From the UHGV virus genome UHGV-1410056: 40,444 bases of DNA, one strand, 5' to 3'. Position 1 is the stretch's first letter; each line of letters begins with the position of its first letter. The notes beneath the pieces were generated by a model. It was not told the DNA's origin, made no database searches, and saw nothing but the letters and a program-made list of their open reading frames with translations. Made by a program: the position numbers and the translations under genes. This stretch comes from a virus. Positions 1,459-38,213 of the stretch are shown here, one piece after another.

Positions 1459-1461
1459 CGT

Positions 1462-2953: not shown

Positions 2954-3002
2954 GAATACCTCTCTTGGTTGCAGTGCGGCGCACGTGGCGCCGCGGTGGT
3001 GG

Positions 3003-4025: not shown

Positions 4026-4034
4026 TTTTTCTCC

Positions 4035-4934
4035 TTACTTCATTCTGAAGACGCGTTGTGTCGTTGTTGTTTTGAATTTTTCGAATAACTCAGGGTGTAC
4101 TGACTGGAATAGCTTCTGGTCGAATCTGTTGCTGATCTGAGATTTCCATGTGCAGAGCGGCTTTCCGTCCAGGGTCAGGACTGAGTGCTCTTGCATGTAC
4201 ATCTTCAGCTTCTCTTCTGATATAGCTATTTCTTCTTCCAGTGATTTTCTGCGTGATTTCATGTCTCGTAGATCGTTGAATAGTGCGAGTGCCTTTCCGT
4301 CAGCCTCGATACTTGTCCCGGCATCTTTCTCAAACATCAGCGATACATCGCTTACGCTGGTAGCTTCCGGCGGGTTAAGATTTTTCACTCGGTCCCAGAA
4401 AGCGATTTCTTTTTCTAAGATCGCCTGGATAGTTTCTTCATCACGCTCAACCCGATAGATTCGGAAGTCGTCGCCACCGATAAGCACACCGAAAACGCAT
4501 ACCTGTTTGTTTGTAACCATCAACCCGTGCATGGCCTGGGCCGTGTAATGCACAGGAATTGCATCTGTCTGGATTTCTCCCCATTCTTTGGCTTTGAACG
4601 GACTAACTGTTTTGATCTCAATGTTCTCGCCTGACGCTGCTTCTGCATCGATCTCAGCTGCAATAAAATCGTAATCACGGTGGATATAGCGGTTTCCGCG
4701 ATGAACGATTTCCATCCCTGTTTCCTCAGAAAGCAGGTCTATTACGTATGGCTCCATACGCTGGCCACGCGTGAAAACTTTCTGCTTGCTTGGGTCTACT
4801 GGTTTGACACGTGGCTGGACCTTATCCAGATAAACCTCAAGCGGGGTGCGCCATGGGCTAATTCCAAGAATCCCTGCAACATCGCTTCCTCCGATGTATT
4901 TTGTTCTATCCATGATTCCAGCGTTCCGCATCAT
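4035..4934 (-). CDS. YqaJ-type phage exonuclease (RecE/lambda-Exo-like partner of RecT)
   Basis: 299 aa; N-terminal GGSDVAGILGISPWRTP signature of YqaJ viral recombinase nucleases; ATGA overlap with upstream gene. Confidence 0.75.
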   Translation of the reverse strand: MMRNAGIMDRTKYIGGSDVAGILGISPWRTPLEVYLDKVQPRVKPVDPSKQKVFTRGQRMEPYVIDLLSEETGMEIVHRGNRYIHRDYDFIAAEIDAEAASGENIEIKTVSPFKAKEWGEIQTDAIPVHYTAQAMHGLMVTNKQVCVFGVLIGGDDFRIYRVERDEETIQAILEKEIAFWDRVKNLNPPEATSVSDVSLMFEKDAGTSIEADGKALALFNDLRDMKSRRKSLEEEIAISEEKLKMYMQEHSVLTLDGKPLCTWKSQISNRFDQKLFQSVHPELFEKFKTTTTQRVFRMK

Positions 4935-5230
4935 GCCGCGTCCCTCTGCCCATCAAGCTGATCCGCCAGATCCCAGCGCGCTATAATTGCCATTGCCTCG
5001 CGCCGGTAGGCATCCATCAGTTCTTCGAACTCAGGGCTGTCTTTAGCAGCCTCCAGCACTTCCTGACGAACGCCTTTGCCTGTTACAACGTCGAAAGTTG
5101 AGGACAGTTGATGAAGTCGGATGCTCTCAATCAGTTCAACTTGTCGGTCATATAGCTGTTCTGACAGGCGGTAGTCCTTGTCGAATGCCAGCATGATTTT
5201 TTGAAGATTTTTCTGCTGATTAACGTTCAT
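4931..5230 (-). CDS. Hypothetical protein (99 aa) of the leftward early operon
   Basis: ORF in track; start taken at ATG 5230 (MNVNQQ...) preceded by GGGAGGG. Confidence 0.5.
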   Translation of the reverse strand: MNVNQQKNLQKIMLAFDKDYRLSEQLYDRQVELIESIRLHQLSSTFDVVTGKGVRQEVLEAAKDSPEFEELMDAYRREAMAIIARWDLADQLDGQRDAA

Positions 5231-5232
5231 TA

Positions 5233-5385
5233 TCAGCCCTCCCATATCTCGTTATCGTTGGCTACATCGCGAGCTTCTTTGCTGACGAAAGCCCACTTAA
5301 TGCCTTCCTGTAAGGTGCGGAACTTCCAGCTCATGAATCCGCATGCAGTAACGCAGTACCAACCGTTGATGATTTTCCACTGCAT
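5233..5385 (-). CDS. Small hypothetical protein (50 aa, MQWKIINGWYCVTACGFMSWKFRTLQEGIKWAFVSKEARDVANDNEIWEG), first gene downstream of the putative PL promoter
   Basis: Not in the ORF track (<60 aa); ATG at 5385 with GAGG 9 nt upstream; ends 3 nt before the next gene start. Confidence 0.45.
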   Translation of the reverse strand: MQWKIINGWYCVTACGFMSWKFRTLQEGIKWAFVSKEARDVANDNEIWEG

Positions 5386-5539: not shown

Positions 5540-6124
5540 TTATTGTTTGCTTTTTTCGTTCTGGTTGATGACAAATTCAATGTAACTTTCGATCTTTGCT
5601 TTCTCGGTTTCGGGTAACAATGCGTAGCGTGAGCGGTCATAGTTGATAGTCGCAGGGTCGTGCGGGTGAATCAGTAGTTCATATCCGTGACGCCCGAATG
5701 CGGATGCAACATTCTCCAGGGTGGAAATGGAAACGCTGACCTCATTGTTTAACAGGCGGCTGATTGTCACCTGGGCGACGCCGGATGCGCGGTGAAGTTT
5801 TCCCTGTGTTGAAAGGTCGCGGCTTTCGCTCATCCAGCGTTCCAGGTTGTGAGCCGCCAGCTGACCTATATCGCTCGGGCCGACAGGCTGAAAACCCTCC
5901 TGAGAAAGCGAACGATCAATATCAAGCCAGTTACGGGGTTTATTGGCGGCAGCTTCAATTTTTCGTGCAACCTGGTCGCCGATAACCTTCTTGCCAAGAG
6001 CCCAGCGGTTTACCAGATTTGCCTGAGTTCCAAGTTTTTCTGCCATCCGCGTCTGAACACCATTGAATTCACGGTCGATCAAGTCGTTGAGATTTTGCCT
6101 GCGGACGTCCTGGATACTTTTCAT
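5540..6124 (-). CDS. CI-like phage repressor with two HTH (XRE-type) domains and no S24 peptidase domain
   Basis: 194 aa; two HTH-like segments (TRMAEKLGTQANLVNRW... and ASGVAQVTISRLLNNE...); no Ser/Lys autocleavage module; divergent from Cro-like gene; no SD before ATG (possibly leaderless). Confidence 0.7.
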   Translation of the reverse strand: MKSIQDVRRQNLNDLIDREFNGVQTRMAEKLGTQANLVNRWALGKKVIGDQVARKIEAAANKPRNWLDIDRSLSQEGFQPVGPSDIGQLAAHNLERWMSESRDLSTQGKLHRASGVAQVTISRLLNNEVSVSISTLENVASAFGRHGYELLIHPHDPATINYDRSRYALLPETEKAKIESYIEFVINQNEKSKQ

Positions 6125-12340: not shown

Positions 12341-12383
12341 GCATGGTACTATTACCACAACGGTAACTATTACCACGGTGGTT

Positions 12384-12980
12384 ATGATGCCTGCTGAACC
12401 TAAAACCTATAAACGCAAATCAACGCAATTTAAGCCACTAACAGCAATGCAGGAGGCTTATTGCCAGTCATACATCAAAACGCCTGAAAACCAGACTCAG
12501 GCAGCGATTAACGCAGGATTCTCCCCAAATACAGCGGCAGTTAAAGCCAGTGTCATGATGCGCGATGAACGCATTCAAAAACGGATTGCCGAGTTGATGG
12601 AGGAGCGCAACAAACGAATGCGCGTCAGTGCTGATTACGTTCTCATGCGCCTGGTGGAGATCGACCAGATGGACGTGATCGACATCCTCAACGACGATGG
12701 GAGCCTTAAACCAATCCGTGAGTGGCCGAAAATCTGGCGCACTACGCTTAGTGGCTTTGATCTGTCATCGACCATCATGAACATGAACGAGGATTCGATA
12801 GAGACAATCCTCAAAAAAATTAAATGGCCTGACAAGGTGAAGAACCTTGAGCTGATTGGTAAGCATGTTGATGTCAACGCGTTCAAAGAACGTCTGGATG
12901 TTAATGTGAATGTGACAATTGCTGATCGCATAGCAGCAGCCAGGAAGCGACTCAAAGAACGTCAGGATGGTAATCAGTGA
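12384..12980 (+). CDS. Terminase small subunit
   Basis: 198 aa from ATG 12384; N-terminal HTH-like region (AAINAGFSPNTAAVKAS); directly upstream of and overlapping the large subunit; track ORF start at 12306 lies inside a terminator hairpin. Confidence 0.65.
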   Translation: MMPAEPKTYKRKSTQFKPLTAMQEAYCQSYIKTPENQTQAAINAGFSPNTAAVKASVMMRDERIQKRIAELMEERNKRMRVSADYVLMRLVEIDQMDVIDILNDDGSLKPIREWPKIWRTTLSGFDLSSTIMNMNEDSIETILKKIKWPDKVKNLELIGKHVDVNAFKERLDVNVNVTIADRIAAARKRLKERQDGNQ

Positions 12981-15117: not shown

Positions 15118-15194
15118 TGGCGTGGCATGCAGGATTCGAACCTGCGACCAACCGCTTAGAAGGCGGTTGCTCTGTCCAACTGAGCTAATGCCAC
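15118..15194 (-). tRNA. tRNA-Arg, anticodon UCU (reads AGA)
   Basis: 77 nt; manual fold gives 7-bp acceptor stem GUGGCAU/AUGCCAC, D-stem GCUC/GAGC, anticodon stem ACCGC/GCGGU with loop CUUCUAA, T-arm GCAGG-UUCGAAU-CCUGC, encoded CCA. Confidence 0.9.
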
Positions 15195-29132: not shown

Positions 29133-31607
29133 ATGAGACAGGAATGTATACAAGCGGTCCAGCAGGCGGCGCAGCGCACGTTAACGGCGCGAGAAATACA
29201 GAACATTGAAGACCGCATTTATCGAAATATGCGCTCCATTGCTCGTGATGACCCGATGTCGTGGAGACAACTTTCCGAATCAGAGCGGCTATATCGAGCA
29301 GCACAATTGGCATCTGAAGAATTACAGCGAGAAGCGGCATTAAAGAAACGTCGTGTGACTCTCACTATAGCCGCGCGTCAGAGATTGGATAAATTTATCA
29401 ATAGCTATCAAGGGGCTGATGGGAAACTTGGCGCTCTTAACCGTACTATAGCTTTTAATGCAGACGGTAAATCTAATTTCCTCTCTGTTGAATCCAGAAC
29501 AAAAGCCACCCGTGATTATGCATTGAGTCAATTGCAGGAGGCATTCGAAGCAGTTGATCCTCGCTTTTTTGGTCTGTTTGAAGATGAAGCGGGCGTACGT
29601 GACCTGGTATATGAAATGCGGGGGCAAAATACTGGCAATGCTAAAGCAAGAAACGGTGCTAAGGCGTGGAGAGAAGTTACAGAGCTGCTGCGCCGCCGGT
29701 TTAATGATGCTGGTGGGGACATTGGCTATCTCGAAAACTGGGGGATCCCTCAACATCATTCTATGGAAAAGGTTGGGGCAGTATCAAAGGATAAGTGGGT
29801 TAGCGATGTTATAGGTAAGCTGGATCGCAAATATTATATCCGAGCCGATGGACAACTGATGAACGATGCCGAGTTGTCTTCATTTCTTGGAGAGGCTTAT
29901 AACACGATCGCTACTGGTGGGCTGAATAAGCTTACTGATACCGGAATGCGAATTTCCGGCGCACGTGCTAACCGTGGTAATGCATCACGACAGATACATT
30001 TCAAAGATGCAGATTCCTATCTGCAATATCAGCAACTTTATGGCGATCGCTCTCTATGGGAAATCATGGTCGGTCACCTGGAAGGTATCAGTAAAGATAT
30101 TGCACTGGTGGAAACATATGGCCCAAACCCCGATCATGTTTTCCGCTCTCTTCTTGATCAGGTGAAGGCAGAAACGGCAACAGCTAACCAGAGTAAAACC
30201 GGTAAAGTCGAGCGGCTGGCGAACAACACAGAGAATCTGTACAACTTTATTTCCGGAAAGACACAGCCTGTAGCGAATCCGCACATCGCGCGATGGTCTG
30301 ACAATATCCGCAACTGGCTGGTTGCCAGCAGACTCGGATCCGCGTTGCTGTCATCGTTCTCTGATCTTGGAACCATGTATCTGTCTGCGAAGGTTACCAA
30401 CCTTCCAATGAACCAGTTATTCCGCAACCAGCTTGAAGCTATGGACCCAACGAACCGTACAGAACTTGCGCGGGCGCGCCGCGCTGGTCTGGCGATGGAA
30501 TCTCTACTTGGCAGCGTTAACCGCTGGGCGATGGATAATATGGGGCCGTCAGTGTCTCGTTGGGCGGCAACGGCGGTAATGCGTGCCAGTGGGCTTACAG
30601 CATGGTCAGATGCGCACAAGCGCGCCTATGGCGTAACCATGATGGGAAGCCTGGGAGAAGTAGTGTCACGTACACCAGACCTTCGTAGCCTCGATGACTC
30701 TGATTTTCGTATCCTGAAAAGCAAAGGGATTACTGACACAGACTGGAGCGTATGGAAGCTGGCGAAACAGGAGGACTGGGGGAACGGTAATAATACGATG
30801 CTGACACCGGAAAGCATTATGCGTATCCCTGATTCAGCAGTTAAACATCTTGGTGAGCCTGAACGCGTGAAATTTGAGGCAATGCGTAAACTGCTCGGTG
30901 CCGTAACTGAAGAAGTTGATATGGCTGTTATTACACCGGGAGCACGTGAGCAACTGATAACCGGTTCTGGTATTCAGCGTGGAACATGGAAAGGTGAATT
31001 AACGAGAAGTGTTTTCCTGTTTAAATCGTTCCCTATCTCGGTGGTTATGCGTCACTGGTCACGCGCTATGGGTATGCCGTCTGCTGGTGGGCGTGCGGCA
31101 TATATTGCGACGTTTATTGCCAGTACGACCATTCTTGGCGCTTTGTCGCAGCAACTTAACGACCTTGCGTCTGGTCGTAATCCTCGCGAGATGACAGGAG
31201 AAGATGCTGCTAAATTTTGGCTTGGTGCTCTACTGAAAGGTGGTGGTCTTGGCCTTTACGGTGACTTTTTATTGTCAGATCACACTAGGTACGGAAGCGG
31301 CGCGCTGGCGTCGATGCTTGGCCCGGTAGCTGGTCTGGTTGATGACGTAGTGAAGATTGCTCAGGGCATACCGTTAAATGCTGTGGAAGGGAAGAGTGAG
31401 CAGACTGGTGGTGATCTGGTTAAGCTGGGGAAAGGTCTGATGCCAGGTGCGAATCTCTGGTACTTGAAGGCGGCTCTCGATCACATGATCTTTAACCAGA
31501 TGCAGGAGTATTTTTCACCAGGTTATTTGCGTAAAATGGAGCAACGTTCGAAGAAAGAGTTTAACCAGACATACTGGTGGCGACCACAGGATGTCACTCC
31601 GCAATAA
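29133..31607 (+). CDS. Large internal virion / ejection protein
   Basis: 824 aa; last gene of the virion block before the accessory island. Confidence 0.45.
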   Translation: MRQECIQAVQQAAQRTLTAREIQNIEDRIYRNMRSIARDDPMSWRQLSESERLYRAAQLASEELQREAALKKRRVTLTIAARQRLDKFINSYQGADGKLGALNRTIAFNADGKSNFLSVESRTKATRDYALSQLQEAFEAVDPRFFGLFEDEAGVRDLVYEMRGQNTGNAKARNGAKAWREVTELLRRRFNDAGGDIGYLENWGIPQHHSMEKVGAVSKDKWVSDVIGKLDRKYYIRADGQLMNDAELSSFLGEAYNTIATGGLNKLTDTGMRISGARANRGNASRQIHFKDADSYLQYQQLYGDRSLWEIMVGHLEGISKDIALVETYGPNPDHVFRSLLDQVKAETATANQSKTGKVERLANNTENLYNFISGKTQPVANPHIARWSDNIRNWLVASRLGSALLSSFSDLGTMYLSAKVTNLPMNQLFRNQLEAMDPTNRTELARARRAGLAMESLLGSVNRWAMDNMGPSVSRWAATAVMRASGLTAWSDAHKRAYGVTMMGSLGEVVSRTPDLRSLDDSDFRILKSKGITDTDWSVWKLAKQEDWGNGNNTMLTPESIMRIPDSAVKHLGEPERVKFEAMRKLLGAVTEEVDMAVITPGAREQLITGSGIQRGTWKGELTRSVFLFKSFPISVVMRHWSRAMGMPSAGGRAAYIATFIASTTILGALSQQLNDLASGRNPREMTGEDAAKFWLGALLKGGGLGLYGDFLLSDHTRYGSGALASMLGPVAGLVDDVVKIAQGIPLNAVEGKSEQTGGDLVKLGKGLMPGANLWYLKAALDHMIFNQMQEYFSPGYLRKMEQRSKKEFNQTYWWRPQDVTPQ

Positions 31608-31616
31608 GGATGAGAA

Positions 31617-31757
31617 ATGATTGCTTTTATTCTTGTTGTGTTTGCGCTTGTTGCACTTGGCGTTATGAACCGTAAATGTATCATTGACGATGGCGAATTT
31701 GCTGTTGCAGTTATTATGATATTATCTGGTGTAGCAGGGTACATAGGCTTGTCATAA
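31617..31757 (+). CDS. Small membrane protein (46 aa, MIAFILVVFALVALGVMNRKCIIDDGEFAVAVIMILSGVAGYIGLS)
   Basis: Not in the ORF track; ATG 31617 with AAGGATGAG SD 9 nt after the upstream stop; two hydrophobic segments. Confidence 0.45.
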   Translation: MIAFILVVFALVALGVMNRKCIIDDGEFAVAVIMILSGVAGYIGLS

Positions 31758-31764
31758 CGTGAGC

Positions 31765-31776
31765 GTGACATGTCAC
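31765..31776. promoter_or_regulatory. Perfect 12-bp palindrome GTGACATGTCAC
   Basis: Identical to 12262-12273; immediately followed by terminator 31777-31801. Confidence 0.45.
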
Positions 31777-31801
31777 AGGCCGCTTTCGCGGCCTTGTTTT
31801 T
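31777..31801 (+). terminator. Rho-independent terminator ending the virion operon
   Basis: Stem AGGCCGC / GCGGCCT with loop TTTC, followed by TGTTTTT. Confidence 0.7.
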
Positions 31802-31961
31802 AACGAATGCCACCGCCGCCCGGACGGGAGTCCGCAGAACGCCCACCGCAGCGGGAGCCGTCAGCAGCAGTGTCGCTGTCGTGCTGACAACGACCGGCAA
31901 AGGCCTGAGTTGAAGCTACCAGAGACAACAAAACGAACAGTGCAGCAAATGCTTTTTTCAT
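31800..31961 (-). CDS. Small secreted Cys-containing peptide (53-aa precursor; predicted signal peptide MKKAFAALFVLLSLVASTQAFA)
   Basis: Start ATG 31961 chosen inside track ORF 31800..32033; canonical signal peptide with AFA-G cleavage site; candidate promoter TTGACG-17-TATAGA upstream; weak SD. Confidence 0.45.
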   Translation of the reverse strand: MKKAFAALFVLLSLVASTQAFAGRCQHDSDTAADGSRCGGRSADSRPGGGGIR

Positions 31962-32032
31962 TGTGAAATTTCCATCTATAAGCCACCTCAATGTGGCGTC
32001 AATGAGTGTAGCACTGACTTTTGTTTCGTCCA

Positions 32033-32055
32033 CAAAAAAGCCCGCAGCGCGGGCT
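32033..32055 (-). terminator. Rho-independent terminator (minus strand) after the AT-rich two-gene cassette
   Basis: Stem AGCCCGC (32039-32045) / GCGGGCT (32049-32055), A6 on plus (T6 on minus); stem overlaps the stop codon at 32054-32056. Confidence 0.6.
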
Positions 32056-32494
32056 ATTCTTCTTCATCATTAAAAAGCGGATTGTTGTTTCCATCTGATG
32101 AAAGGAAAGGTATGTGTTCTCTTGAAAATCCAACAATGACAATTTCATTATCATTTTTTGCATAATGAATGCATTCATTAGAATGCCTTCCGCCAGGGTT
32201 GAAATTTAAGTTAATGGTATAATTCTTAAATGTGTTTGGATACCATGTTGGCCCACAATGATAATGCCAATAATTCTCTTGCTCATAATTGTCTGAGCCG
32301 GGAATTTTATCATGGTTATCATCAACCCACGAGGGCTTGTTTTTTCCAACAAGCGCCCTTCCATTGGCAACATCCTCTAAAAAACTTTGTATGATTTTTA
32401 TTTCATCATCAGTAAGGAAAGGTCCGTCTACAGCGAAAGGGGTGTTGCTTTCCCCATGTAGAAAACTATTAGATATTCTAATGTTAAACTTCAA
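32054..32494 (-). CDS. AT-rich hypothetical protein (146 aa, TTG start), unknown function; second gene of a two-gene cassette
   Basis: Track ORF 32054..32635 has no internal Met and its N-terminal 47 codons overlap the upstream small gene; TTG at 32494 preceded by AGGAG (6-nt spacer); His/Cys-rich segments (HYHCGPTW, GRHSNECIHY); markedly lower GC than surroundings. Confidence 0.45.
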   Translation of the reverse strand: MKFNIRISNSFLHGESNTPFAVDGPFLTDDEIKIIQSFLEDVANGRALVGKNKPSWVDDNHDKIPGSDNYEQENYWHYHCGPTWYPNTFKNYTINLNFNPGGRHSNECIHYAKNDNEIVIVGFSREHIPFLSSDGNNNPLFNDEEE

Positions 32495-32514
32495 GGAAAA
32501 CTCCTGATGTGCTT

Positions 32515-32682
32515 CTATTTGGAGCGAAATGCCGCCTTGAAGTCGCTGAAAGATGTTCCTGTCTGGTAAACCATATCCTTGTCGCGCTCTTTGCTTGCGC
32601 GGCCAAGCATAACTTTTCCAATGACATCCCAGCATTGCTTGGCTTGTTCATTGTGCTGAGTACGATTTTTCAACGCTGTCAT
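32515..32682 (-). CDS. Small hypothetical protein (55 aa, MTALKNRTQHNEQAKQCWDVIGKVMLGRASKERDKDMVYQTGTSFSDFKAAFRSK); first gene of the two-gene cassette
   Basis: Not in the ORF track; ATG 32682 with AGGAGG 6 nt upstream; operator 32695-32709 immediately upstream. Confidence 0.5.
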   Translation of the reverse strand: MTALKNRTQHNEQAKQCWDVIGKVMLGRASKERDKDMVYQTGTSFSDFKAAFRSK

Positions 32683-32694
32683 ATCGCGCCTCCT

Positions 32695-32709
32695 TTACCT
32701 TTAAGGTAA
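32695..32709. promoter_or_regulatory. Perfect TTACC-tttaa-GGTAA operator upstream of the two-gene cassette
   Basis: Lies 13 bp upstream of the start codon of the 55-aa gene. Confidence 0.5.
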
Positions 32710-32781
32710 TAGTACGCTATTCACCCACAGTCTGCAATCTGTACAGAATTATTTAAAGGCACATCCCTGTGCCACCGCCCG

Positions 32782-33492
32782 TCAGAAGAACCCTGCCTTG
32801 TCGTTGATGTATTCCGCGTGGGTCTGGATATCACGCAGGCATTTGCTCACACCGACGATGTAGCAGAACATGGTGGTCAGCTCCGCCGCCGCGCCCGATA
32901 CGTCGTGCCCGTCGTCCTGTAACTGGTTCAGCAGATTCATCAGCAGTGAGTTCTCCGTCAGGCCGAGAACACCAGACGGCGAATTAATCAGGCTGCGGTA
33001 GCCGGGCTTCAGTGGGGCGCTGTAGGTTTTGTTCTCTATCTTCATCGCCTGCATTACTGCTGACGCCGTGGCGTTGGCTACCTGGTCGGCAACCATCTTT
33101 ATGCGTTCTTCCTGCGGGAGCGAGTTTTTAATGTAGCTTCCGGTGCGGCGGATCTGAGGAAGAACCTCACCCGTAACCCATTTACGAAAGCGGTAGGGGA
33201 TAGTGCCTGGTGTCACTGCGTCGCGGCAGCGGAGGATCAGTGTGTAGAGGCCTGACTCGGAGATGATGTTGATCTCTTTTACTCGGCTGTCAAAAATTGC
33301 ACGATGTTCATGCCCTATGTTGAACATAGACCTTTCATCATCATCCAGTTTTTCAAGTGCTTGGGTGACGTTTTGGATACGCAGCGCACTACAAACGTCT
33401 TGGGCTACAAACCATGGTTGGCCATCGATAATGATGGAACGGATAGGGTTAACAGATTCAAATTTGAAGATGGAAGTTTGAGCATTAGCCAT
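32782..33492 (-). CDS. Antirepressor (Bro-N / AntA-type N-terminal domain plus C-terminal domain)
   Basis: About 236 aa from ATG 33492; N-terminal Bro-N-like region (FKFESVNPIRSIIIDGQPWFVAQDVCSAL); C-terminal 80 aa paralogous to the LexA-box gene at 34641-34898. Confidence 0.7.
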   Translation of the reverse strand: MANAQTSIFKFESVNPIRSIIIDGQPWFVAQDVCSALRIQNVTQALEKLDDDERSMFNIGHEHRAIFDSRVKEINIISESGLYTLILRCRDAVTPGTIPYRFRKWVTGEVLPQIRRTGSYIKNSLPQEERIKMVADQVANATASAVMQAMKIENKTYSAPLKPGYRSLINSPSGVLGLTENSLLMNLLNQLQDDGHDVSGAAAELTTMFCYIVGVSKCLRDIQTHAEYINDKAGFF

Positions 33493-33510
33493 GGTGGTTA
33501 TCTCCACTTA

Positions 33511-33524
33511 GTGATTTTAATCAC
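33511..33524. promoter_or_regulatory. 14-bp palindrome GTGATTTTAATCAC just upstream of the antirepressor start
   Basis: Perfect inverted repeat GTGATT/AATCAC 19 bp upstream of ATG 33492. Confidence 0.35.
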
Positions 33525-33648
33525 CACCGCAACGCCAATTACTGGTGGTGAACTGGACAAGGTTGGCGTACCGGCCTAAGTGGTACCGGCGTCCTTTCGG
33601 ACCCCTGCCCAGCCCACCATAATTCGGATATAGCTGTGCTTAACGCAT

Positions 33649-33782
33649 AAAAAAACCACGTCTGGCGTGGTATGCGCCACTTAGTAACCCGGGACGCCAA
33701 TCCCGGCACTGGATTTTGCCAGTGCCCGATTACTATGGCACAAGAGGAGTGCGATGTAAATTTACCGCAAAGGTAATGATAA
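33649..33782 (-). ncRNA. Candidate small RNA or attenuated leader (about 120 nt) upstream of the antirepressor gene
   Basis: Reverse-strand promoter TTGATT (plus 33800-33805) - 17 bp - TATCAT (plus 33777-33782), overlapped by operator 33762-33776; transcript contains hairpins (GGCACTGG/CCAGTGCC; CCGGGA/TCCCGG) and ends at intrinsic terminator CCACG-N5-CGTGG + T7 (plus 33649-33670); no credible ORF. Confidence 0.4.
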
Positions 33783-33869
33783 ACGCGGAGAAATATCAAA
33801 ATCAACCGTATTTGGTTGGTGGCGTTTAACGCTTGATCACCTGAAAGCAAGATATTACCTTTAAGGTAA
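33762..33869. promoter_or_regulatory. Two perfect TTACC-N5-GGTAA operators (33762-33776, 33855-33869) in the divergent control region between the antirepressor side and the zinc-ribbon gene
   Basis: Second operator sits 20 bp upstream of ATG 33890. Confidence 0.5.
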
Positions 33870-33889
33870 TGTTATTGTGAGGAAAAGCA

Positions 33890-34618
33890 ATGGAAGTTTT
33901 CTGGATAGTTGTTGGTGTGGTTGCGGTGATTATTTACGTTATCAACCAGAACAAGACTAAGATCTCTGATCGTACGGTCGTTAATCATAACAAAACGATA
34001 AAGACCGAAGATGGGGAGATAACGATTAATCGTACACAGGTGATAGAACACACCTCTACTCAGTTTCAAAAAACTGGAGGTAATGCGCCTAATATTTCCG
34101 AACCTCCTGCTTATGATAGTGCGGTAATCCAGACATATTGTAAACAGCAGGAGTTAGCAAAAGAGAGGCAACTGATTCAGCCAAAGCCGTTTACAGCTGA
34201 GCTTCCACCTGGAGTATCAATGCGTCCGGCATATCATGGAAGATTCCCTGGTGATGACATATCGTCTCAGTCATCTAAAAAAGCACCTCAGGCAGTATCA
34301 GAGCCAGCAAGAATACCTTCTGTATCGCCGCCAAAAGAAGAATCAGCTAACAGAGTTTCAAGTGGCCGCAAGCAGTGTTTGCGATGCAGAATAAACCTTC
34401 CATATGACAAATTCCGGAAATCGTCAAAAAATCCAGATGGATTGACTAAGTGGTGTGCAAGGTGTCTCGATGGCCCAAAGAATACACGCCATATGAAGTG
34501 GTGCCCAATTTGTAATGTCCGCAGAAAACGGACCAGCTTTTACCCTAATAATCAAAATGCGGACGGCTTAATGGCATGGTGCAAAACGTGCTGGGACGAG
34601 CACAAAGCGAAACGATAG
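33890..34618 (+). CDS. Membrane-anchored protein with C-terminal tandem CxxC zinc-ribbon-like repeats; unknown function
   Basis: 242 aa; N-terminal TM helix (EVFWIVVGVVAVIIYVI); C-terminal repeats CLRCRINLPYDKFRKSSKNPDGLTKWCARC and CPICNVRRKRTSFYPNNQNADGLMAWCKTC. Confidence 0.55.
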   Translation: MEVFWIVVGVVAVIIYVINQNKTKISDRTVVNHNKTIKTEDGEITINRTQVIEHTSTQFQKTGGNAPNISEPPAYDSAVIQTYCKQQELAKERQLIQPKPFTAELPPGVSMRPAYHGRFPGDDISSQSSKKAPQAVSEPARIPSVSPPKEESANRVSSGRKQCLRCRINLPYDKFRKSSKNPDGLTKWCARCLDGPKNTRHMKWCPICNVRRKRTSFYPNNQNADGLMAWCKTCWDEHKAKR

Positions 34619-34640
34619 GCCGCTCTTGCGGCCTTTAAAT

Positions 34641-34898
34641 TTACCGGGTTTGTTTTCGTAATTGTTCGGCACAATAGTCGAGATGTGTTTGCAGATCCTG
34701 CATAGACATCTGTGAGCTGGTGACGTAGTTAATCAGTGCAGTCAGTTCGGCAAGTGGGCCATCGACATTAAATCCATCCTTATCGAGATCCCGGAGTAAT
34801 TTCATCAAGTGCGATCCCTCCACCAGTGACCTGACGCCTCCCGGCGTGTGAATCCTTTCGGTAAATCCGTCTTCCAGTGGATAGTGATACTGCTGCAT
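34641..34898 (-). CDS. Small LexA-controlled protein (85 aa) homologous to the antirepressor C-terminal domain; candidate SOS-induced antirepressor
   Basis: Start ATG 34898 (GGAGAAG SD) within track ORF 34641..34916; about 40% identity by eye to the C-terminus of the Bro-N antirepressor (shared GV..L.E.S.LM.LL..L..DG..V.G...ELT ... D.QTH); LexA box immediately upstream. Confidence 0.6.
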   Translation of the reverse strand: MQQYHYPLEDGFTERIHTPGGVRSLVEGSHLMKLLRDLDKDGFNVDGPLAELTALINYVTSSQMSMQDLQTHLDYCAEQLRKQTR

Positions 34899-34919
34899 CT
34901 TATCTTCTCCATGCAATAA

Positions 34920-34935
34920 CTGTATATTTATACAG
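34920..34935. promoter_or_regulatory. LexA (SOS) box CTGTATATTTATACAG
   Basis: Perfect CTGT-N8-ACAG with AT-rich spacer (extended TAACTGTATATTTATACAGTAT, 34917-34938), 4 bp from the first ATG of the minus-strand gene. Confidence 0.75.
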
Positions 34936-34974
34936 TATCAAATAATTTGTTTGCTATCCAGCACGTTTTGCAAA

Positions 34975-34989
34975 TTACCTGAAAGGTAA
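34975..34989. promoter_or_regulatory. Perfect TTACC-tgaaa-GGTAA operator between the LexA-controlled gene and the tailspike gene
   Basis: Same 15-bp sequence as the site at 15517-15531. Confidence 0.5.
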
Positions 34990-35093
34990 TATCTATTCGT
35001 ATTTACAGCCTTTCTATCCATATGTGGTTTTCCAGGTAATAGAATAACCAGATATGCGGCGCAACGGGTGCTGCGACTATCTGGAGATTTAAC

Positions 35094-38000
35094 ATGACGG
35101 TCTCAACCGAAGTTGACCACAACGAATACACCGGTAACGGCGTTACGACATCGTTTCCGTATACTTTTCGAATTTTCAGAAAATCAGACCTGGTTGTTCA
35201 GGTGTCTGACCTGAACGGAAACGTAACAGAATTGGTTCTGGATACCGGTTATACGGTAACTGGGGCGGGCACTTATAGTGGCGGTTCTGTGGTTCTTCCG
35301 TCTCCGCTTGCTACTGGATGGCGAATTACGATAGATCGTGTGCTTGATGTAGTGCAGGAGACAGACCTTCGCAATCAGGGAAAATTTTTCCCCGAAGTGC
35401 ATGAAGATGCCTTTGACTACCTGACGATGCTGATCCAGCAATGTTTTGGGTGGTTCAGACGTGCATTGATGAAACCATCTTTGCTTGCAAAATATTACGA
35501 TGCAAAGCAAAACAAAATTTCTAACCTTGCAGATCCATCATTTGAGCAGGACGCTGTAAATAATCGCTCAATGCGTAATTATGTCGATGCTGCAATCGCC
35601 GGGGTTGTTGGTGGTTTTGGTTGGTTTATTCAGTATGGTTCTGGGGCTGTGTACCGAACGTTCCAGGATAAAATGCGTGATGCTATTAGCCCCAAAGATT
35701 TTGGAGCTGTTGGTGATGGTATAAATGACGATTCCACTGCAATAAGCGCGTGCCTTGAAGCCTCATCTCCAGGTTATAAAATTGACGGATTAGGGCTTAC
35801 TTTTAAAGTATCAACTCTTCCGGATGTCAGTCGATTTAAAAATGCTCGTTTTTTATTTGAGAGAATACCGGGCCAGCCTCTTTTTTATGCTTCTGAAGAT
35901 TTTATCCAGGGAGAGTTATTTAAAATTACAGATACACCGTGGTACAACGCCTGGACGCAGGATAAAACGTTTGTATATGACAATGTCATCTATGCGCCTT
36001 TTATGGCTGGAGACCGCCATGGTGTAAATAACCTCCATGTTGCATGGGTTCGCTCAGGAGATGACGGGAAGACCTGGACAACGCCGGAATGGCTTACAGA
36101 TTTACATGAAAACTATCCCACAGTTAACTATCACTGCATGAGTATGGGGGTTGTCAGAAATCGCCTTTTTGCTGTAATTGAGACGCGGACCGTGAGCGGA
36201 AATAAACTGCAGGTTGCAGAGTTGTGGGATCGCCCAATGAGTCGCAGCCTTCGCGCTTATGGTGGTATAACGAAAGCAGCAAATCAGCAAGTCGCTTATA
36301 TTCGCATTACTGATCACGGATTATTTGCTGGTGATTTTGTCAACTTCTCAAACTCTGGTGTTACAGGTGTTACCGGGAATATGACGGTGACTACTGTTAT
36401 TGATAAAAATACTTTTACAGTTACGACGCAAAATACCCAGGATGTGGATCAGAATAACGAGGGTAGATACTGGAGTTTTGGTACATCATTTCACTCGTCA
36501 CCATGGAGAAAAACCAGTCTTGGAACTATTCCTTCTTTTGTTGACGGAAGCACTCCTGTTACTGAGATTCACAGTTTTGCGACGATTAGCGATAACAGTT
36601 TTGCTGTTGGCTACCATAATGGTGATATTGGTCCACGCGAGCTTGGGATACTCTATTTCTCTGATGCTTTCGGTTCTCCTGGTAGCTTTGTTCGCAGACG
36701 CATACCTGCAGAATATGAGGCGAATGCATCTGAGCCATGTGTAAAATATTATGATGGCATTCTGTATCTGACGACCAGGGGGACATTAAGTACTCAACCC
36801 GGTAGTTCATTGCACAGAAGCTCTGATTTAGGTACATCATGGAATTCTCTTCGCTTCCCAAATAATGTTCATCACTCAAACCTTCCTTTTGCCAAAGTTG
36901 GCGATGAGCTGATTATTTTTGGCAGTGAGCGCGCATTTGGTGAGTGGGAAGGAGGAGAACCTGATAACCGTTATGCAGGAAATTATCCAAGAACATTTAT
37001 GACCAGAGTTAACGTCAATGAGTGGAGTCTGGATAATGTAGAGTGGGTTAATGTTACTGATCAGATTTATCAGGGCGGAATAGTTAACTCTGCAGTTGGT
37101 GTTGGTTCAGTTTGTATCAAAGACAACTGGCTGTACTACATTTTCGGTGGGGAAGACTTTCTAAACCCATGGAGCATAGGGGATAACAACAGAAAATATC
37201 CTTATGTTCACGATGGTCACCCGGCTGATTTGTATTGTTTCAGGGTGAAAATTAAACAGGAAGAATTTGTTTCAAGGGATTTTGTCTACGGAGCCACTCC
37301 TAACAGAACGCTTCCTACTTTTATGTCGACGTCAGGCGTGAGGACGGTTCCTGTACCCGTTGATTTCGCAGATGATGTTGCCGTCCAGTCACTGACTGTC
37401 CATGCAGGTACATCAGGACAAGTTCGCGCGGAAGTCAAACTTGAGGGTAATTACGCCATTATTGCGAAGAAAGTACCGTCTGATGATGTTACCGCTCAGA
37501 GATTAATCGTTAGCGGCGGTGAAACAACGTCTTCAGCAGATGGTGCAATGATAACGTTGCATGGTTCCGGAAGCAGTACTCCACGTCGCGCGGTATATAA
37601 CGCACTCGAACATCTTTTTGAGAACGGAGATGTTAAACCTTATCTTGATAATGTAAATGCTCTTGGTGGTCCGGGAAACAGGTTCTCGACAGTTTATCTT
37701 GGCTCCAATCCTGTGGTTACCAGTGACGGAACATTAAAGACAGAGCCGGTCTCTCCTGACGAAGCATTGCTGGATGCCTGGGGTGACGTCAGGTATATCG
37801 CTTATAAATGGCTGAACGCTGTCGCTATAAAGGGGGAAGAAGGGGCGAGGATACATCATGGTGTAATCGCGCAGCAACTTCGTGATGTTCTTATTTCTCA
37901 CGGACTCATGGAAGAAGAAAGCACAACATGCCGCTATGCCTTTCTTTGCTATGACGATTATCCCGCAGTATATGATGACGTCATTACTGGCCAAAGGGAA

Positions 38001-38213
38001 ATGCCGCTGACTGATAATGACGGGAGCATCATTGTTGATGAGGATGATAATCCAGTGATGGTAATGGAAGACATCATTGAGCGCGTTGAAATAACGCCAG
38101 CAGGATCTAGATGGGGGGTCAGACCTGATCTCTTATTCTATATCGAGGCAGCATGGCAGCGCAGAGAAATGGATAAGATAAAAGAGCGGATTCAGTCTCT
38201 GGAAGAACGTTAA
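35094..38213 (+). CDS. Tailspike: endo-N-acetylneuraminidase (endosialidase) with C-terminal intramolecular chaperone domain
   Basis: 1039 aa; T7 gp17-like N-terminal head-binding region; two sialidase Asp-boxes (SGDDGKTW, SSDLGTSW); long collinear match to K1F-type endosialidase catalytic region as I recall it; C-terminal about 162 aa resemble the autocleaving chaperone domain with predicted cleavage at Ser877/Asp878 (37722-37727). Confidence 0.8.
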   Translation: MTVSTEVDHNEYTGNGVTTSFPYTFRIFRKSDLVVQVSDLNGNVTELVLDTGYTVTGAGTYSGGSVVLPSPLATGWRITIDRVLDVVQETDLRNQGKFFPEVHEDAFDYLTMLIQQCFGWFRRALMKPSLLAKYYDAKQNKISNLADPSFEQDAVNNRSMRNYVDAAIAGVVGGFGWFIQYGSGAVYRTFQDKMRDAISPKDFGAVGDGINDDSTAISACLEASSPGYKIDGLGLTFKVSTLPDVSRFKNARFLFERIPGQPLFYASEDFIQGELFKITDTPWYNAWTQDKTFVYDNVIYAPFMAGDRHGVNNLHVAWVRSGDDGKTWTTPEWLTDLHENYPTVNYHCMSMGVVRNRLFAVIETRTVSGNKLQVAELWDRPMSRSLRAYGGITKAANQQVAYIRITDHGLFAGDFVNFSNSGVTGVTGNMTVTTVIDKNTFTVTTQNTQDVDQNNEGRYWSFGTSFHSSPWRKTSLGTIPSFVDGSTPVTEIHSFATISDNSFAVGYHNGDIGPRELGILYFSDAFGSPGSFVRRRIPAEYEANASEPCVKYYDGILYLTTRGTLSTQPGSSLHRSSDLGTSWNSLRFPNNVHHSNLPFAKVGDELIIFGSERAFGEWEGGEPDNRYAGNYPRTFMTRVNVNEWSLDNVEWVNVTDQIYQGGIVNSAVGVGSVCIKDNWLYYIFGGEDFLNPWSIGDNNRKYPYVHDGHPADLYCFRVKIKQEEFVSRDFVYGATPNRTLPTFMSTSGVRTVPVPVDFADDVAVQSLTVHAGTSGQVRAEVKLEGNYAIIAKKVPSDDVTAQRLIVSGGETTSSADGAMITLHGSGSSTPRRAVYNALEHLFENGDVKPYLDNVNALGGPGNRFSTVYLGSNPVVTSDGTLKTEPVSPDEALLDAWGDVRYIAYKWLNAVAIKGEEGARIHHGVIAQQLRDVLISHGLMEEESTTCRYAFLCYDDYPAVYDDVITGQREMPLTDNDGSIIVDEDDNPVMVMEDIIERVEITPAGSRWGVRPDLLFYIEAAWQRREMDKIKERIQSLEER

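What the first reader, a model, noticed from the sequence alone, without database searches (positions are those of the whole stretch)
31617..35093. 3.5-kb accessory island between the ejection-protein genes and the tailspike, resembling the P22 immI position
In T7-like virion modules the tail fibre gene directly follows the internal virion genes. Here, between them, lie a terminator and seven mostly minus-strand genes: a small membrane protein, a secreted Cys peptide, the two-gene AT-rich cassette, a Bro-N antirepressor, a candidate sRNA, a membrane zinc-ribbon protein and the LexA-controlled small gene. P22 carries its immI region (mnt-arc-ant, with sieA nearby) at the same relative position, upstream of the tailspike. 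The island therefore looks like a second immunity/induction and lysogenic-conversion region, but with different components.
Basis: inference. Interest (0 to 1): 0.6.

Follow-up and report, generated by a model that had tools for sequence, protein, structure and literature searches.

The report
Prophage antirepressor hub with inserted cargo
This stretch of an E. coli prophage is its induction-control region: two antirepressor genes, one held off by the host SOS repressor LexA and one by a P1-type antisense RNA, with a few cargo genes inserted between them; the parts are known kinds and only their combination is modestly new.

Summary

The window is a Uetakevirus (phiV10/epsilon15/SPC32H-like) prophage inserted next to guaA. 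Two of the seven genes are genus core, not accessory:
- the 46-aa membrane gene;
- the LexA-controlled small gene, which is the ortholog of SPC32H Ant (PDB 5D50).

The true insert is 31796-34616. It sits between two near-identical copies of one terminator hairpin.

The "candidate sRNA" is a P1/P7-type immI cassette: promoter, isrK-like leader (a1/b1), C4 antisense RNA, then a2/b2 over the Shine-Dalgarno sequence of the Bro-N gene. C4 and its four targets covary in 71 of 73 parsed related loci. The Bro-N protein ends in an Ant-like domain, so two differently controlled antirepressors probably hit the same non-cleavable repressor.

The cargo is:
- a signal-peptide moron;
- an orphan RelE-fold toxin-like protein with a conserved small partner;
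- a membrane tandem-zinc-finger protein.

Predicted repressor operators overlap the promoters of the last two and flank the C4 promoter. That argues against expression in the lysogen.

The immI analogy is supported. Lysogenic conversion is not. This is a new variant of known kinds, of moderate interest.

The parts
31617..31757 (+). 46-aa two-helix membrane protein. It is the last gene of the virion operon and is genus core, not cargo.
   Evidence: phrog_7892 E 1e-32. Present at the same place in phiV10, SPN1S, SPC32H and PAS61. Replaced by another small gene in some relatives.
31777..31794 (+). Terminator hairpin, left copy (AGGCCGCTTTCGCGGCCT followed by a T-run). It marks the left edge of the insert.
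   Evidence: Identical at 16 of 18 positions to 34617-34634. PAS61 has a single hairpin joining 31795 to 34617.
31800..31961 (-). 53-aa protein with a signal peptide (...STQAFA|GRC) and a 31-aa mature part with two Cys. Moron-like unit with terminators on both sides and no repressor operator.
   Evidence: phrog_14503, 'moron' category, E 2e-40. Sources call it 'transmembrane anchored protein' only. Module borders at 31761-75 and 32066-77.
32039..32055 (.). Bidirectional terminator hairpin between the peptide gene and the two-gene cassette.
   Evidence: reported on both strands.
32054..32494 (-). 146-aa protein of an orphan family with a RelE/ParE-superfamily fold. Candidate toxin. 35.6% GC.
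32515..32682 (-). 55-aa partner gene, 20 nt upstream of the 146-aa gene. Candidate antitoxin.
   Evidence: phrog_8607. A homologous small gene precedes the 146-aa homolog in Pectobacterium, Proteus and Klebsiella prophages.
32694..32737 (-). Promoter-like TTGCAG-17-TACTAT (32737-32709). A predicted Rep operator, TTTACCTTTAAGGTAAT (32694-32710), covers about -8 to +9 of it. This unit drives the two-gene cassette.
   Evidence: Read from sequence; operator scan. An operator is also kept in front of two different cassettes in TL-2011b and EC.W1-9, with the central 5 bp varied. TL-2011b homology starts exactly at 32694.
32782..33492 (-). 236-aa antirepressor. N-terminal Bro-N domain plus a C-terminal domain (residues ~153-234) homologous to the small Ant.
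   Evidence: Pfam Bro-N E 9e-20. phrog_450 E 5e-35 on residues 153-234, the same family as Ant. BLASTP against Ant: 41% identity, E 2e-18. 107 of 109 ORFs behind isrK-C4 leaders in IMG/VR carry this C-terminal domain.
33504..33538 (-). a2 (33532-33538, TTGGCGT) and b2 (33504-33511, CTAAGTGG), the downstream targets of C4. b2 overlaps the Shine-Dalgarno GGAG of the Bro-N gene.
33541..33624 (-). C4 antisense RNA. a' = ACGCCAA (33563-33569); b' = CCACTTAG (33576-33583).
   Evidence: Rfam RF01695, 66 bits against gathering score 45. Complementarity and covariation.
33649..33738 (-). isrK-like leader carrying a1 (33694-33700) and b1 (33677-33684), with an intrinsic terminator at 33655-33671.
   Evidence: RF01394, 67.7 bits against 50. 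RF03163 (c4-a1b1), 44.1 bits against 46.7. Terminator. In the read-through RNA the minimum-energy fold pairs a1/b1 with a'/b' in cis, z = -4.7.
33732..33777 (-). Promoter of the isrK-C4-antirepressor operon: TTTACA-17-CATAGT with an extended -10 TG. A predicted Rep operator (33761-33777) abuts its -35 hexamer.
   Evidence: Conserved in 7 relatives.
33854..33870 (.). Perfect predicted Rep operator ATTACCTTTAAGGTAAT, 20 nt upstream of the zinc-finger gene.
33890..34618 (+). 242-aa protein: N-terminal transmembrane helix, low-confidence linker, C-terminal tandem zinc finger. Function unknown.
   Evidence: phrog_6762. Weak Stc1 matches: Pfam E 3e-4 and Foldseek 2luy E 9e-3. Model confident (pLDDT mostly above 90) only for residues ~1-10 and 161-240. 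Orphan family whose named members are all Enterobacterales. Homologs sit beside the internal-virion gene in Providencia and Serratia podovirus prophages; in Providencia between it and the tailspike.
34617..34634 (+). Terminator hairpin, right copy. It marks the right edge of the insert.
34641..34898 (-). ant: 85-aa antirepressor, ortholog of SPC32H Ant. Genus core.
   Evidence: PDB 5D50 chain E, E 4e-47 over residues 2-84. Present in epsilon15 (gp19), SPN1S, SPC32H, phiV10 and PAS61. Found in 531 of 5426 complete E. coli genomes.
34920..34935 (.). LexA box CTGTATATTTATACAG in the ant promoter region.
   Evidence: A box is conserved upstream of ant in 12 relatives, including a Pectobacterium prophage.
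34974..34990 (.). Perfect predicted Rep operator ATTACCTGAAAGGTAAT between ant and the tailspike gene.
   Evidence: The same site in epsilon15 is annotated in RefSeq as protein_bind 'repressor'.

Best explanation
The stretch is the antirepressor (induction-control) region of a Uetakevirus prophage. It has been enlarged by 2.8 kb of modular DNA inserted into the terminator that, in minimal relatives, separates the last virion-operon gene from ant.

The prophage repressor Rep has no autocleavage domain, so it must be removed by antirepressors. The region provides two.

1. The SOS arm. The 85-aa Ant is transcribed from a promoter covered by a perfect LexA box. DNA damage removes LexA, Ant is made, and Ant takes the Rep tetramer off its operators, as shown for SPC32H.

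2. The RNA arm, built like P1/P7 immI.
- A promoter makes an isrK-like leader that mostly stops at its own terminator.
- Read-through RNA carries the C4 antisense RNA and then the Bro-N antirepressor gene.
- C4 pairs through two short sequences, a' and b', with a2/b2, and b2 covers the ribosome-binding site. The antirepressor mRNA is therefore made but not translated.
- The leader carries the same targets (a1/b1) and can soak up C4.
- The Bro-N protein ends in a domain homologous to Ant. It probably acts on the same Rep.

The cargo between the two arms is:
- a signal-peptide moron;
- a RelE-fold toxin-like protein with a small partner;
- a membrane tandem-zinc-finger protein.
The last two have predicted Rep operators over their promoters. 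They are probably switched on at infection or induction rather than in the lysogen.

Shown here: homologies, RNA family matches, base complementarity and covariation, site positions, variability among relatives.
Inferred: Ant-Rep binding in this phage, Rep binding to the palindromes, the decoy role of the leader, toxin activity, timing of cargo expression.
For: Identity of the phage:
- Uetakevirus prophage next to guaA.

SOS arm:
- Ant matches 5D50_E at E 4e-47.
- Rep matches 5D50_A at E 3.5e-42 over its full length.
- Rep has only HTH domains and no Peptidase_S24.
- The LexA box is perfect and conserved in 12 relatives.

RNA arm:
- Rfam C4 and isrK both score above their gathering thresholds.
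- They are also present in phiV10, TL-2011b, phiv142-3, 118UI, XJ55 and EC.W1-9.
- a'/b' are perfectly complementary to a1/b1 and a2/b2, and b2 overlaps the SD.
- Coordinated changes occur at all sites in 7 relatives. In IMG/VR, 71 of 73 parsed loci are fully complementary, with 2 a-types, 4 b-types and 7 combinations.
- The Bro-N C-terminus belongs to the Ant family. 107 of 109 ORFs behind such leaders carry it, with Bro-N or another N-terminal domain.
- Overexpressing the Bro-N antirepressor of the related phage ZX5 lowered lysogens about 1000-fold (PMC9782041).
- c4 blocking ant translation is established for P1/P7 (PMC12197685). IsrK upstream of an antirepressor is established for Gifsy-1 (PMC4825925).

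Insert borders and modules:
-.

Operators:
- ATTACC-N5-GGTAAT with at most 1 mismatch occurs 12 times against 0 in shuffles.
- In SPC32H there are three copies between rep and cro, three just past rep, and single copies before the other operons.
- epsilon15 RefSeq annotates one as a repressor site.
- In relatives the half-sites are kept while the centre varies.

Cargo:
-.
Against: - There are no expression data or binding data for this prophage.
- I could not read the two SPC32H primary papers. The identity of the Rep operator rests on position and on a database annotation.
- The operator at the C4 promoter lies at about -36 to -52. From there it could activate or be neutral rather than repress.
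- The promoter in front of the two-gene cassette is weak by consensus (7 of 12).
- In phiV10 the Bro-N protein is truncated inside the Ant-like domain, so this arm can decay.
- The 73 parsed IMG/VR loci are related to each other, so they are not independent events. The independent signal is the 7 type combinations.
Confidence: 0.75

Rival explanations
1. The cargo part is a lysogenic-conversion or anti-phage defence hotspot, as the reader partly proposed. The peptide, the toxin-like pair and the membrane zinc-finger protein would be expressed in the lysogen for the host's benefit (exclusion, abortive infection, surface change). The antirepressor genes would simply be neighbours.
For: - The cargo is variable. 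Among 5426 E. coli genomes, the cassette is in 77, the zinc-finger gene in 129 and ant in 531.
- The toxin-like gene has low GC, and terminators flank the units.
- Other toxin-antitoxin-type genes sit in the same slot in relatives: a YafO family toxin in TL-2011b and a TacA-like gene in M9682-C1.
- P22 keeps sieA at the same relative place.
- The peptide gene has no operator.
Against: - Predicted Rep operators overlap the core promoters of the cassette and of the zinc-finger gene. They are kept in relatives even in front of different cassettes.
- PADLOC finds no hit for any of the seven proteins.
- No known conversion enzyme is present.
Confidence: 0.25
2. The 17-bp palindromes are not Rep operators. 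They would bind another factor, or be recombination sites that merely mark module joints. In that case the cargo genes and the C4 operon are not under repressor control.
For: - Two module joints coincide with palindromes: 32694, and 33759-33786.
- Binding has not been tested.
- Sites also occur in front of late operons, which is unusual for a lambda-type repressor.
Against: - In both the window and SPC32H, clusters lie exactly where OR and OL are expected, on either side of rep.
- epsilon15 annotates one as a repressor site.
- The Rep N-terminal region is well conserved across these phages.
Confidence: 0.15
3. The C4/isrK-Bro-N arm is an inactive remnant in this prophage. Induction would run through LexA/Ant alone.
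For: - Minimal relatives do without this arm.
- phiV10's Bro-N protein is truncated.
- The window's C4 scores lower than some relatives: 66 against 78-80 bits.
Against: - The ORF is intact at 236 aa.
- All four targets are perfectly complementary to the window's own C4.
- The window's type combination (a = CG, b = AGTGG) recurs in 9 IMG/VR loci.
- The leader is found in 457 E. coli genomes.
Confidence: 0.1

Closest known systems
SPC32H antirepression system (Rep, Ant, LexA; Kim and Ryu 2013; structures 5D4Z and 5D50)
   Same: - Ant ortholog (E 4e-47).
- Rep homolog over its full length, with no S24 peptidase domain.
- LexA box in front of ant.
- ant lies divergently from, and directly upstream of, the tailspike gene, with the same 17-bp palindrome in between.
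   Different: - SPC32H has only the 46-aa gene, a terminator and ant here.
- The window has 2.8 kb more, including a second, longer antirepressor that carries the same C-terminal domain.
P1/P7 immI (c4 antisense RNA - icd - ant)
   Same: - Order a1/b1 - c4 - a2/b2 - antirepressor gene.
- c4 loops are complementary to both target pairs, and b2 covers a ribosome-binding site.
- Specificity types differ by matched changes, as between P1 and P7 (PMC12197685).
   Different: - There is no icd-like ORF. b2 covers the antirepressor's own Shine-Dalgarno sequence, 48 nt after C4.
- The protein is Bro-N plus an SPC32H-Ant-like domain.
- The primary repressor is an SPC32H-type Rep, not P1 C1.
- The host phage is an integrated podovirus, not a plasmid myovirus.
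Gifsy-1 isrK - orf45 (STnc1160) - anrP locus of Salmonella
   Same: - An isrK-family leader with its own terminator.
- Read-through into an antirepressor gene.
- A processed RNA downstream that is complementary to IsrK.
   Different: - No orf45 for translational coupling.
- No antQ neighbour.
- It is not known whether the short leader activates translation here as IsrK does.
P22 immI (mnt - arc - sar - ant, with sieA nearby)
   Same: - Same relative position, between the ejection-protein genes and the tailspike gene.
- Same role as a second immunity region.
   Different: - The window has no Arc or Mnt, no sar RNA and no P22_AR_N domain.
- The relative TL-2011b does carry arc-sar-ant here. Its Ant ends in the same C-terminal domain as the window's Bro-N protein.
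APSE phages of Hamiltonella (c4 and isrK next to a Bro-N gene; PMC7313666)
   Same: A podovirus with c4 and isrK RNAs beside a Bro-N protein gene. The c4 a'/b' match the region upstream of that gene.
   Different: No LexA/Ant arm was reported there. The host and the cargo differ.
Type II toxin-antitoxin systems of the RelE/ParE superfamily
   Same: - The predicted fold of the 146-aa protein.
- A small gene directly upstream that is kept across different phage contexts.
   Different: - No sequence-family membership.
- About 50 extra residues.
- The promoter carries a phage repressor operator rather than an obvious autoregulatory site.

Membership tests
SPC32H-type LexA/Ant antirepression | Small Ant protein homologous to SPC32H Ant | tested here: met
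   5D50_E, E 4e-47, residues 2-84.
SPC32H-type LexA/Ant antirepression | Cognate Rep of the SPC32H type, lacking an autocleavage domain | tested here: met
   5D50_A, E 3.5e-42, residues 1-190. Pfam finds HTH domains only and no Peptidase_S24.
SPC32H-type LexA/Ant antirepression | LexA box at the ant promoter | tested here: met
   CTGTATATTTATACAG at 34920-34935. Conserved in 12 relatives.
SPC32H-type LexA/Ant antirepression | Ant binds Rep and releases it from DNA; induction depends on ant | not testable with these tools
   Needs pull-down or EMSA, and deletion mutants.
P1/P7 immI (c4-controlled antirepressor) | C4 antisense RNA | tested here: met
   RF01695, 66 bits against gathering score 45.
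P1/P7 immI (c4-controlled antirepressor) | Upstream a1/b1 and downstream a2/b2 targets complementary to a'/b', with b2 over a ribosome-binding site | tested here: met
   7- and 8-nt perfect matches at all four sites. b2 overlaps GGAG, 9 nt before the ATG. The RF03163 match scores 44.1 bits, just under its 46.7 threshold.
P1/P7 immI (c4-controlled antirepressor) | Matched (compensatory) changes between c4 and its targets across variants | tested here: met
   Five type combinations among 7 relatives. 71 of 73 parsed IMG/VR loci are fully complementary, in 7 combinations.
P1/P7 immI (c4-controlled antirepressor) | icd-like ORF between c4 and ant, translationally coupled to ant | tested here: not met
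   Only 48 nt lie between the end of C4 (33541) and the ATG (33492). There is no ORF.
P1/P7 immI (c4-controlled antirepressor) | Antirepressor homologous to P1 Ant1/Ant2 | not tested
   The P1 Ant sequence was not fetched. Pfam and PHROG show Bro-N plus an SPC32H-Ant-like domain.
P22 immI | Position between the ejection-protein genes and the tailspike gene | tested here: met
   P22 annotation compared with the window.
P22 immI | Arc/Mnt ribbon-helix-helix repressors and sar antisense RNA | tested here: not met
   No such Pfam hit. No sar match in an E-value-mode Rfam search. sar is found only in the relative TL-2011b.
Gifsy-1 isrK locus | IsrK RNA with its own terminator, upstream of an antirepressor gene | tested here: met
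   RF01394, 67.7 bits against 50. Terminator at 33655-33671.
Gifsy-1 isrK locus | orf45 whose translation is coupled to the antirepressor | tested here: not met
   The ATG after the terminator is followed by a stop at the third codon in the window. A 24-codon ORF in the phiV10-type sequence is not conserved.
RelE/ParE-superfamily type II toxin-antitoxin | Toxin with the RelE-like fold | tested here: met
RelE/ParE-superfamily type II toxin-antitoxin | Adjacent small partner gene inherited together with the toxin | tested here: met
   A homologous small gene lies upstream in Pectobacterium (47% identity), Proteus and Klebsiella prophages.
RelE/ParE-superfamily type II toxin-antitoxin | Membership of a curated toxin sequence family | tested here: not met
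   No Pfam, NCBIfam or PADLOC hit. hhalign against the TL-2011b YafO toxin gives probability 0.15%. No PDB sequence hit.
RelE/ParE-superfamily type II toxin-antitoxin | Toxicity that is neutralised by the partner | not testable with these tools
   Needs expression assays.

The most novel reading that the evidence does not exclude
The locus would be a multi-input induction hub built from interchangeable parts.

One constant Rep-targeting C-terminal domain is delivered in several forms:
- alone, as Ant;
- behind a Bro-N domain;
- behind a second, non-Bro-N N-terminal domain;
- behind a P22_AR_N domain.

Each copy has its own sensor:
- LexA for DNA damage;
- the C4/isrK RNA balance, for heteroimmune superinfection or physiological cues;
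- Arc/sar or a TacA-like repressor in relatives.

In addition, the variable cargo (an orphan RelE-fold toxin pair and a membrane zinc-finger protein) would belong to the Rep regulon. It would act at infection or induction rather than as lysogenic-conversion genes. The operator palindromes would double as the joints at which modules are exchanged.
Probability: 0.35. Interest if true: 0.6.

Novelty: new variant of a known kind. Interest (0 to 1): 0.42.

Why it matters
About one in ten complete E. coli genomes carries this ant region: 531 of 5426, of which 457 also have the C4/isrK leader. None of the 12 sampled matches to the leader has an annotated feature.

If two or three differently controlled antirepressors converge on one repressor, induction of these prophages depends on more than DNA damage. 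This window carries a K1-capsule endosialidase tailspike, and relatives infect O157 and other pathogenic E. coli.

The combinatorial C4 types would define heteroimmunity groups among otherwise near-identical prophages.

The analysis also gives:
- a clean natural set of compensatory changes for the c4 mechanism;
- a new RelE-fold family to test;
- an example of cargo genes wired to a phage repressor.

None of this overturns current understanding. It extends known systems.

Tried and rejected
- The SPC32H primary papers could not be opened. What I say about them rests on my own knowledge, on the PDB entries, and on how PMC9638917 describes them.
- Is the 146-aa protein a YafO toxin, like the gene in the same slot of TL-2011b? 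No. hhalign gives probability 0.15%, NCBIfam and Pfam give nothing, and the PDB sequence search gives only noise. Only the fold comparison was informative.
- PADLOC found no defence-system match for any of the seven proteins.
- The zinc-finger protein gave only a weak Stc1 tandem zinc-finger match (Pfam E 3e-4; Foldseek E 9e-3) on a model that is confident only at its two ends. I assign no function.
- The PHROG hits of that protein to endonuclease VII, Lar and HNH cover only the zinc ribbons. I do not read them as nuclease function.
- The Rfam Trp_leader match at 32032-32138 (21.5 bits against 41, E 0.55) is the terminator hairpin, so it is chance.
- Source names for the 53-, 55- and 46-aa proteins are uninformative.
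- A formal pair count on alignment A2 was dropped. The b-loop indel puts the window and phiV10 out of register. Exact complementarity was scored by script instead.
- Duplex-energy cross tables did not separate cognate from non-cognate pairs cleanly. I do not use them as evidence of specificity.

Full report
**What the window is.**
- The window matches phiV10-like Uetakevirus phages and several hundred E. coli prophages at 94-98% DNA identity.
- A 95-98% identical prophage in strain MS20653 lies next to guaA. Its gene order is: integrase, early genes, an HTH repressor, replication genes, terminase, head genes, three large internal virion proteins, the region in question, an endosialidase tailspike, and lysis genes.
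- In the window the three internal proteins end at 31607 and the tailspike starts at 35094.

**Check of the observation.**
- Terminator-like hairpins are enriched, 17 found against 3.8 expected.
- The 146-aa gene is 35.6% GC against 48.8% for the window.
- The LexA box CTGTATATTTATACAG at 34920-34935 is perfect. It is one of only three CTGT-N8-ACAG matches in 40 kb.
- The "candidate sRNA" is two Rfam families above their gathering scores: C4 antisense RNA (33541-33624, minus strand) and isrK (33649-33725, minus strand). The c4-a1b1 target motif overlaps the latter.

**Borders.**
- I aligned 31000-35600 to eleven related loci.
- The minimal phage PAS61 joins window 31795 directly to 34617; SPN1S keeps the same two flanking blocks (31000-31801 and 34647-35440) and epsilon15 keeps the right one.
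- Both ends of the extra DNA are copies of one terminator hairpin, AGGCCGC-TTTC/TCTT-GCGGCCT, identical at 16 of 18 positions.
- The accessory DNA is therefore 31796-34616, inserted at the terminator.
- The 46-aa membrane gene and the small LexA-controlled gene are genus core.
- Inside the insert, homology breaks define four modules. The breaks are at about 32066-77, 32694-32771 and 33759-86.
  - The peptide gene.
  - A cargo slot holding different two-gene cassettes in different phages.
  - The Bro-N gene with its RNA leader.
  - A second cargo slot.

**The SOS arm.**
- The 85-aa protein is the ortholog of SPC32H Ant (PDB 5D50 chain E, E 4e-47).
- The window's repressor (5540-6124, minus strand) aligns end to end with SPC32H Rep (5D50 chain A, E 3.5e-42). 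It has HTH domains only, with no S24 peptidase.
- As I recall the SPC32H work (Kim and Ryu 2013; Kim et al. 2016), Rep is not cleaved after DNA damage. It is inactivated by Ant, whose promoter is covered by a LexA box. PMC9638917 describes Ant as a tetramer that takes apart the DNA-bound Rep tetramer. I could not open the primary papers.
- A LexA box is kept in front of ant in all 12 relatives examined.
- The ant region occurs in 531 of 5426 complete E. coli genomes.

**The RNA arm.** On the minus strand the order is as follows.
- A promoter, TTTACA-17-CATAGT with an extended -10 TG (33760-33732).
- An isrK-like leader ending in an intrinsic terminator.
- C4.
- 48 nt of spacer.
- The Bro-N gene.

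C4 carries a' (ACGCCAA) and b' (CCACTTAG). Perfect complements occur twice:
- in the leader, as a1 (33694-33700) and b1 (33677-33684);
- just before the gene, as a2 (33532-33538) and b2 (33504-33511), where b2 overlaps the GGAG Shine-Dalgarno sequence.

This is the layout of P1/P7 immI, where c4 RNA blocks antirepressor translation and differences in c4 explain P1/P7 heteroimmunity (PMC12197685; PMC8201110).

The strongest evidence that it works is covariation.
- Among seven relatives, a' and b' differ, and a1, a2, b1 and b2 change to match.
- An IMG/VR scan with a conserved leader word gave 133 leader instances, counting the window and the loci fetched earlier.
- 73 of these could be parsed strictly, and 71 had all four targets complementary to their own C4.
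- They fall into two a-types, four b-types and seven combinations. The loci are related, so the independent signal is the number of combinations, not 71.

In the read-through RNA the minimum-energy fold pairs a1/b1 with a'/b' in cis (z = -4.7). This fits a decoy role for the leader. It also fits the Gifsy-1 finding that short IsrK turns on translation of the downstream antirepressor (PMC4825925).

Two differences from the models: there is no icd or orf45-like coupling ORF, and C4 targets the antirepressor's own ribosome-binding site.

c4 and isrK beside a Bro-N gene were already noted in APSE podoviruses (PMC7313666). This module is therefore not new in kind.

**One effector domain, several deliveries.**
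- The Bro-N protein's residues 153-234 match the same PHROG as Ant (E 5e-35). They align to Ant at 41% identity (E 2e-18).
- Of 109 complete ORFs behind isrK-C4 leaders, 107 carry this C-terminal domain.
- The N-terminal part resembles the window's Bro-N domain in 92 of those ORFs. In 15 of the rest it is a second, non-Bro-N domain; the last 2 have neither domain.
- In TL-2011b a P22-type Ant (P22_AR_N domain), preceded by arc and sar, ends in a nearly identical copy of the same domain.
- The constant C-terminal part is therefore the likely Rep-binding module. This is an inference.
- Overexpressing the Bro-N antirepressor of the related phage ZX5 cut lysogens about 1000-fold (PMC9782041).

**Predicted repressor operators.**
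- The palindrome ATTACC-N5-GGTAAT, allowing one mismatch, occurs 12 times in the window against none in shuffles.
- In the window, two copies lie just past rep. One good copy and two weaker ones lie between rep and cro.
- In SPC32H there are three between rep and cro, three past rep, and single copies before the terminase, portal, tailspike, lysis and integrase genes.
- epsilon15's RefSeq record annotates the copy between gp19 (ant) and the tailspike gene as a repressor site.
- Four of the window's twelve copies are in the region studied:
  - over the -10/+1 of a promoter-like element in front of the two-gene cassette (32694-32710);
  - abutting the -35 of the C4 promoter (33761-33777);
  - 20 nt before the zinc-finger gene (33854-33870);
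  - between ant and the tailspike gene (34974-34990).
- In relatives the half-sites are kept while the central 5 bp vary. An operator also precedes the different cassettes of TL-2011b and EC.W1-9.
- My inference is that Rep silences the cassette and the zinc-finger gene in the lysogen.
- The site at about -44 of the C4 promoter could be neutral or activating. That would make sense, because C4 must be made in the lysogen.

**Cargo.**
- The 53-aa gene has a signal peptide and a 31-aa mature part with two Cys. It has terminators on both sides and no operator. It is the only unit that looks like a classical moron.
- The 146-aa protein belongs to a 34-member orphan family; the members whose source organism is named are all Enterobacterales or Pasteurellaceae. 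Its invariant motifs are GKNK.SW, WHYHCG and H127.P, with IHY nearly invariant.
  - A homologous small gene sits directly upstream in Pectobacterium, Proteus and Klebsiella prophages.
  - I read the pair as a toxin-antitoxin-like module of a new sequence family. The fold and the gene pairing are shown; activity is not.
- The 242-aa protein has a transmembrane helix and a C-terminal tandem zinc finger, with weak Stc1 resemblance.
  - Its homologs recur in Providencia and Serratia podovirus prophages beside the internal-virion gene. In Providencia the homolog lies between that gene and the tailspike gene, next to an Ant homolog.
  - Its function is unknown.
- In complete E. coli genomes the cassette is in 77, the zinc-finger gene in 129, and the whole region at 80% coverage or more in 39.

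- The positional analogy to P22 immI is correct.
- "Second immunity/induction region" is correct.
- The components are known from SPC32H and from P1/Gifsy-1/APSE rather than being new.
- "Lysogenic conversion" is not supported, except possibly for the peptide gene.

**Verdict.** The finding is real and can be explained. It is a new combination, or variant, of known systems. The testable extras are:
- convergent antirepressors that share one domain;
- combinatorial C4 types;
- cargo tagged with repressor operators;
- an orphan RelE-fold pair.

Interest is moderate.

Noticed in passing
window 35094-38213 (+): The tailspike is a K1-capsule endosialidase (End_N_terminal, End_beta_propel, End_beta_barrel, End_tail_spike, Peptidase_S74 chaperone) fused to a Uetakevirus N-terminal adaptor. 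Homology with relatives that carry other tailspikes stops at about 35440-35528. The receptor-binding part is therefore swapped behind a conserved ~115-145-aa head-binding part.
   Followed up: partly
window 150, 5404, 5467, 6179, 8466, 8528, 12351, 12369, 15516 (17-bp sites): The predicted Rep operator also sits in front of int, the leftward early operon, cro, a post-replication gene block, the terminase genes and the portal gene. SPC32H shows the same pattern. One repressor may therefore silence every operon directly. The two sites at 12351-12385 fall inside the annotated 5' end of the small-terminase ORF, whose true start is probably near 12387 (by comparison with the 198-aa SPC32H gene).
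   Followed up: partly
L003 (TL-2011b) 780-5240: TL-2011b carries three antirepressor units side by side: P22-type arc-sar-ant, the C4/isrK-Bro-N unit, and LexA-ant. The first two proteins share a near-identical Ant-like C-terminal domain, to which the small Ant is homologous (37-39% identity).
   Followed up: partly
L009 (E. coli M9682-C1) 2413-3307: In this variant the C4/isrK leader is missing. A TacA-like (DUF1778, ribbon-helix-helix) gene overlaps the start of the Bro-N gene instead. This may be a third kind of control for the same antirepressor.
   Followed up: no
L002 (phiV10) 2419-3003: phiV10's Bro-N protein is truncated in the middle of the Ant-like C-terminal domain. In the type phage of this group that arm may be inactive.
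   Followed up: no
window 32694-32710 and 33759-33786: Two homology breakpoints between modules coincide with operator palindromes. In phiV10 the central 5 bp of the operator at the C4 promoter are in the opposite orientation (GCAAA against TTTGC). This hints that the palindromes serve as recombination joints.
   Followed up: no
window 31617-31757: In several E. coli relatives the 46-aa membrane gene is replaced by an unrelated 98-144-aa gene. The breakpoints are at 31610 and 31761. This is a further small variable slot at the end of the virion operon.
   Followed up: no
window 33493-33780; E. coli genomes: The C4/isrK leader is present in 457 of 5426 complete E. coli genomes. All 12 matches sampled across the ranking show no annotated feature under the match.
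   Followed up: no
L018 (Pectobacterium prophage) 1160-3447: A distant prophage has the same neighbourhood: a LexA box, an 87-aa Ant homolog, a Bro-N gene, then the 56-aa and 148-aa homologs of the toxin-like pair, next to a tail gene. The association of these parts is therefore older than the E. coli phages.
   Followed up: partly
window 15121-15194 (-): A tRNA gene lies between the terminase and portal regions (Rfam tRNA, 73 bits). It is annotated tRNA-Arg in the related prophage and in SPC32H.
   Followed up: no
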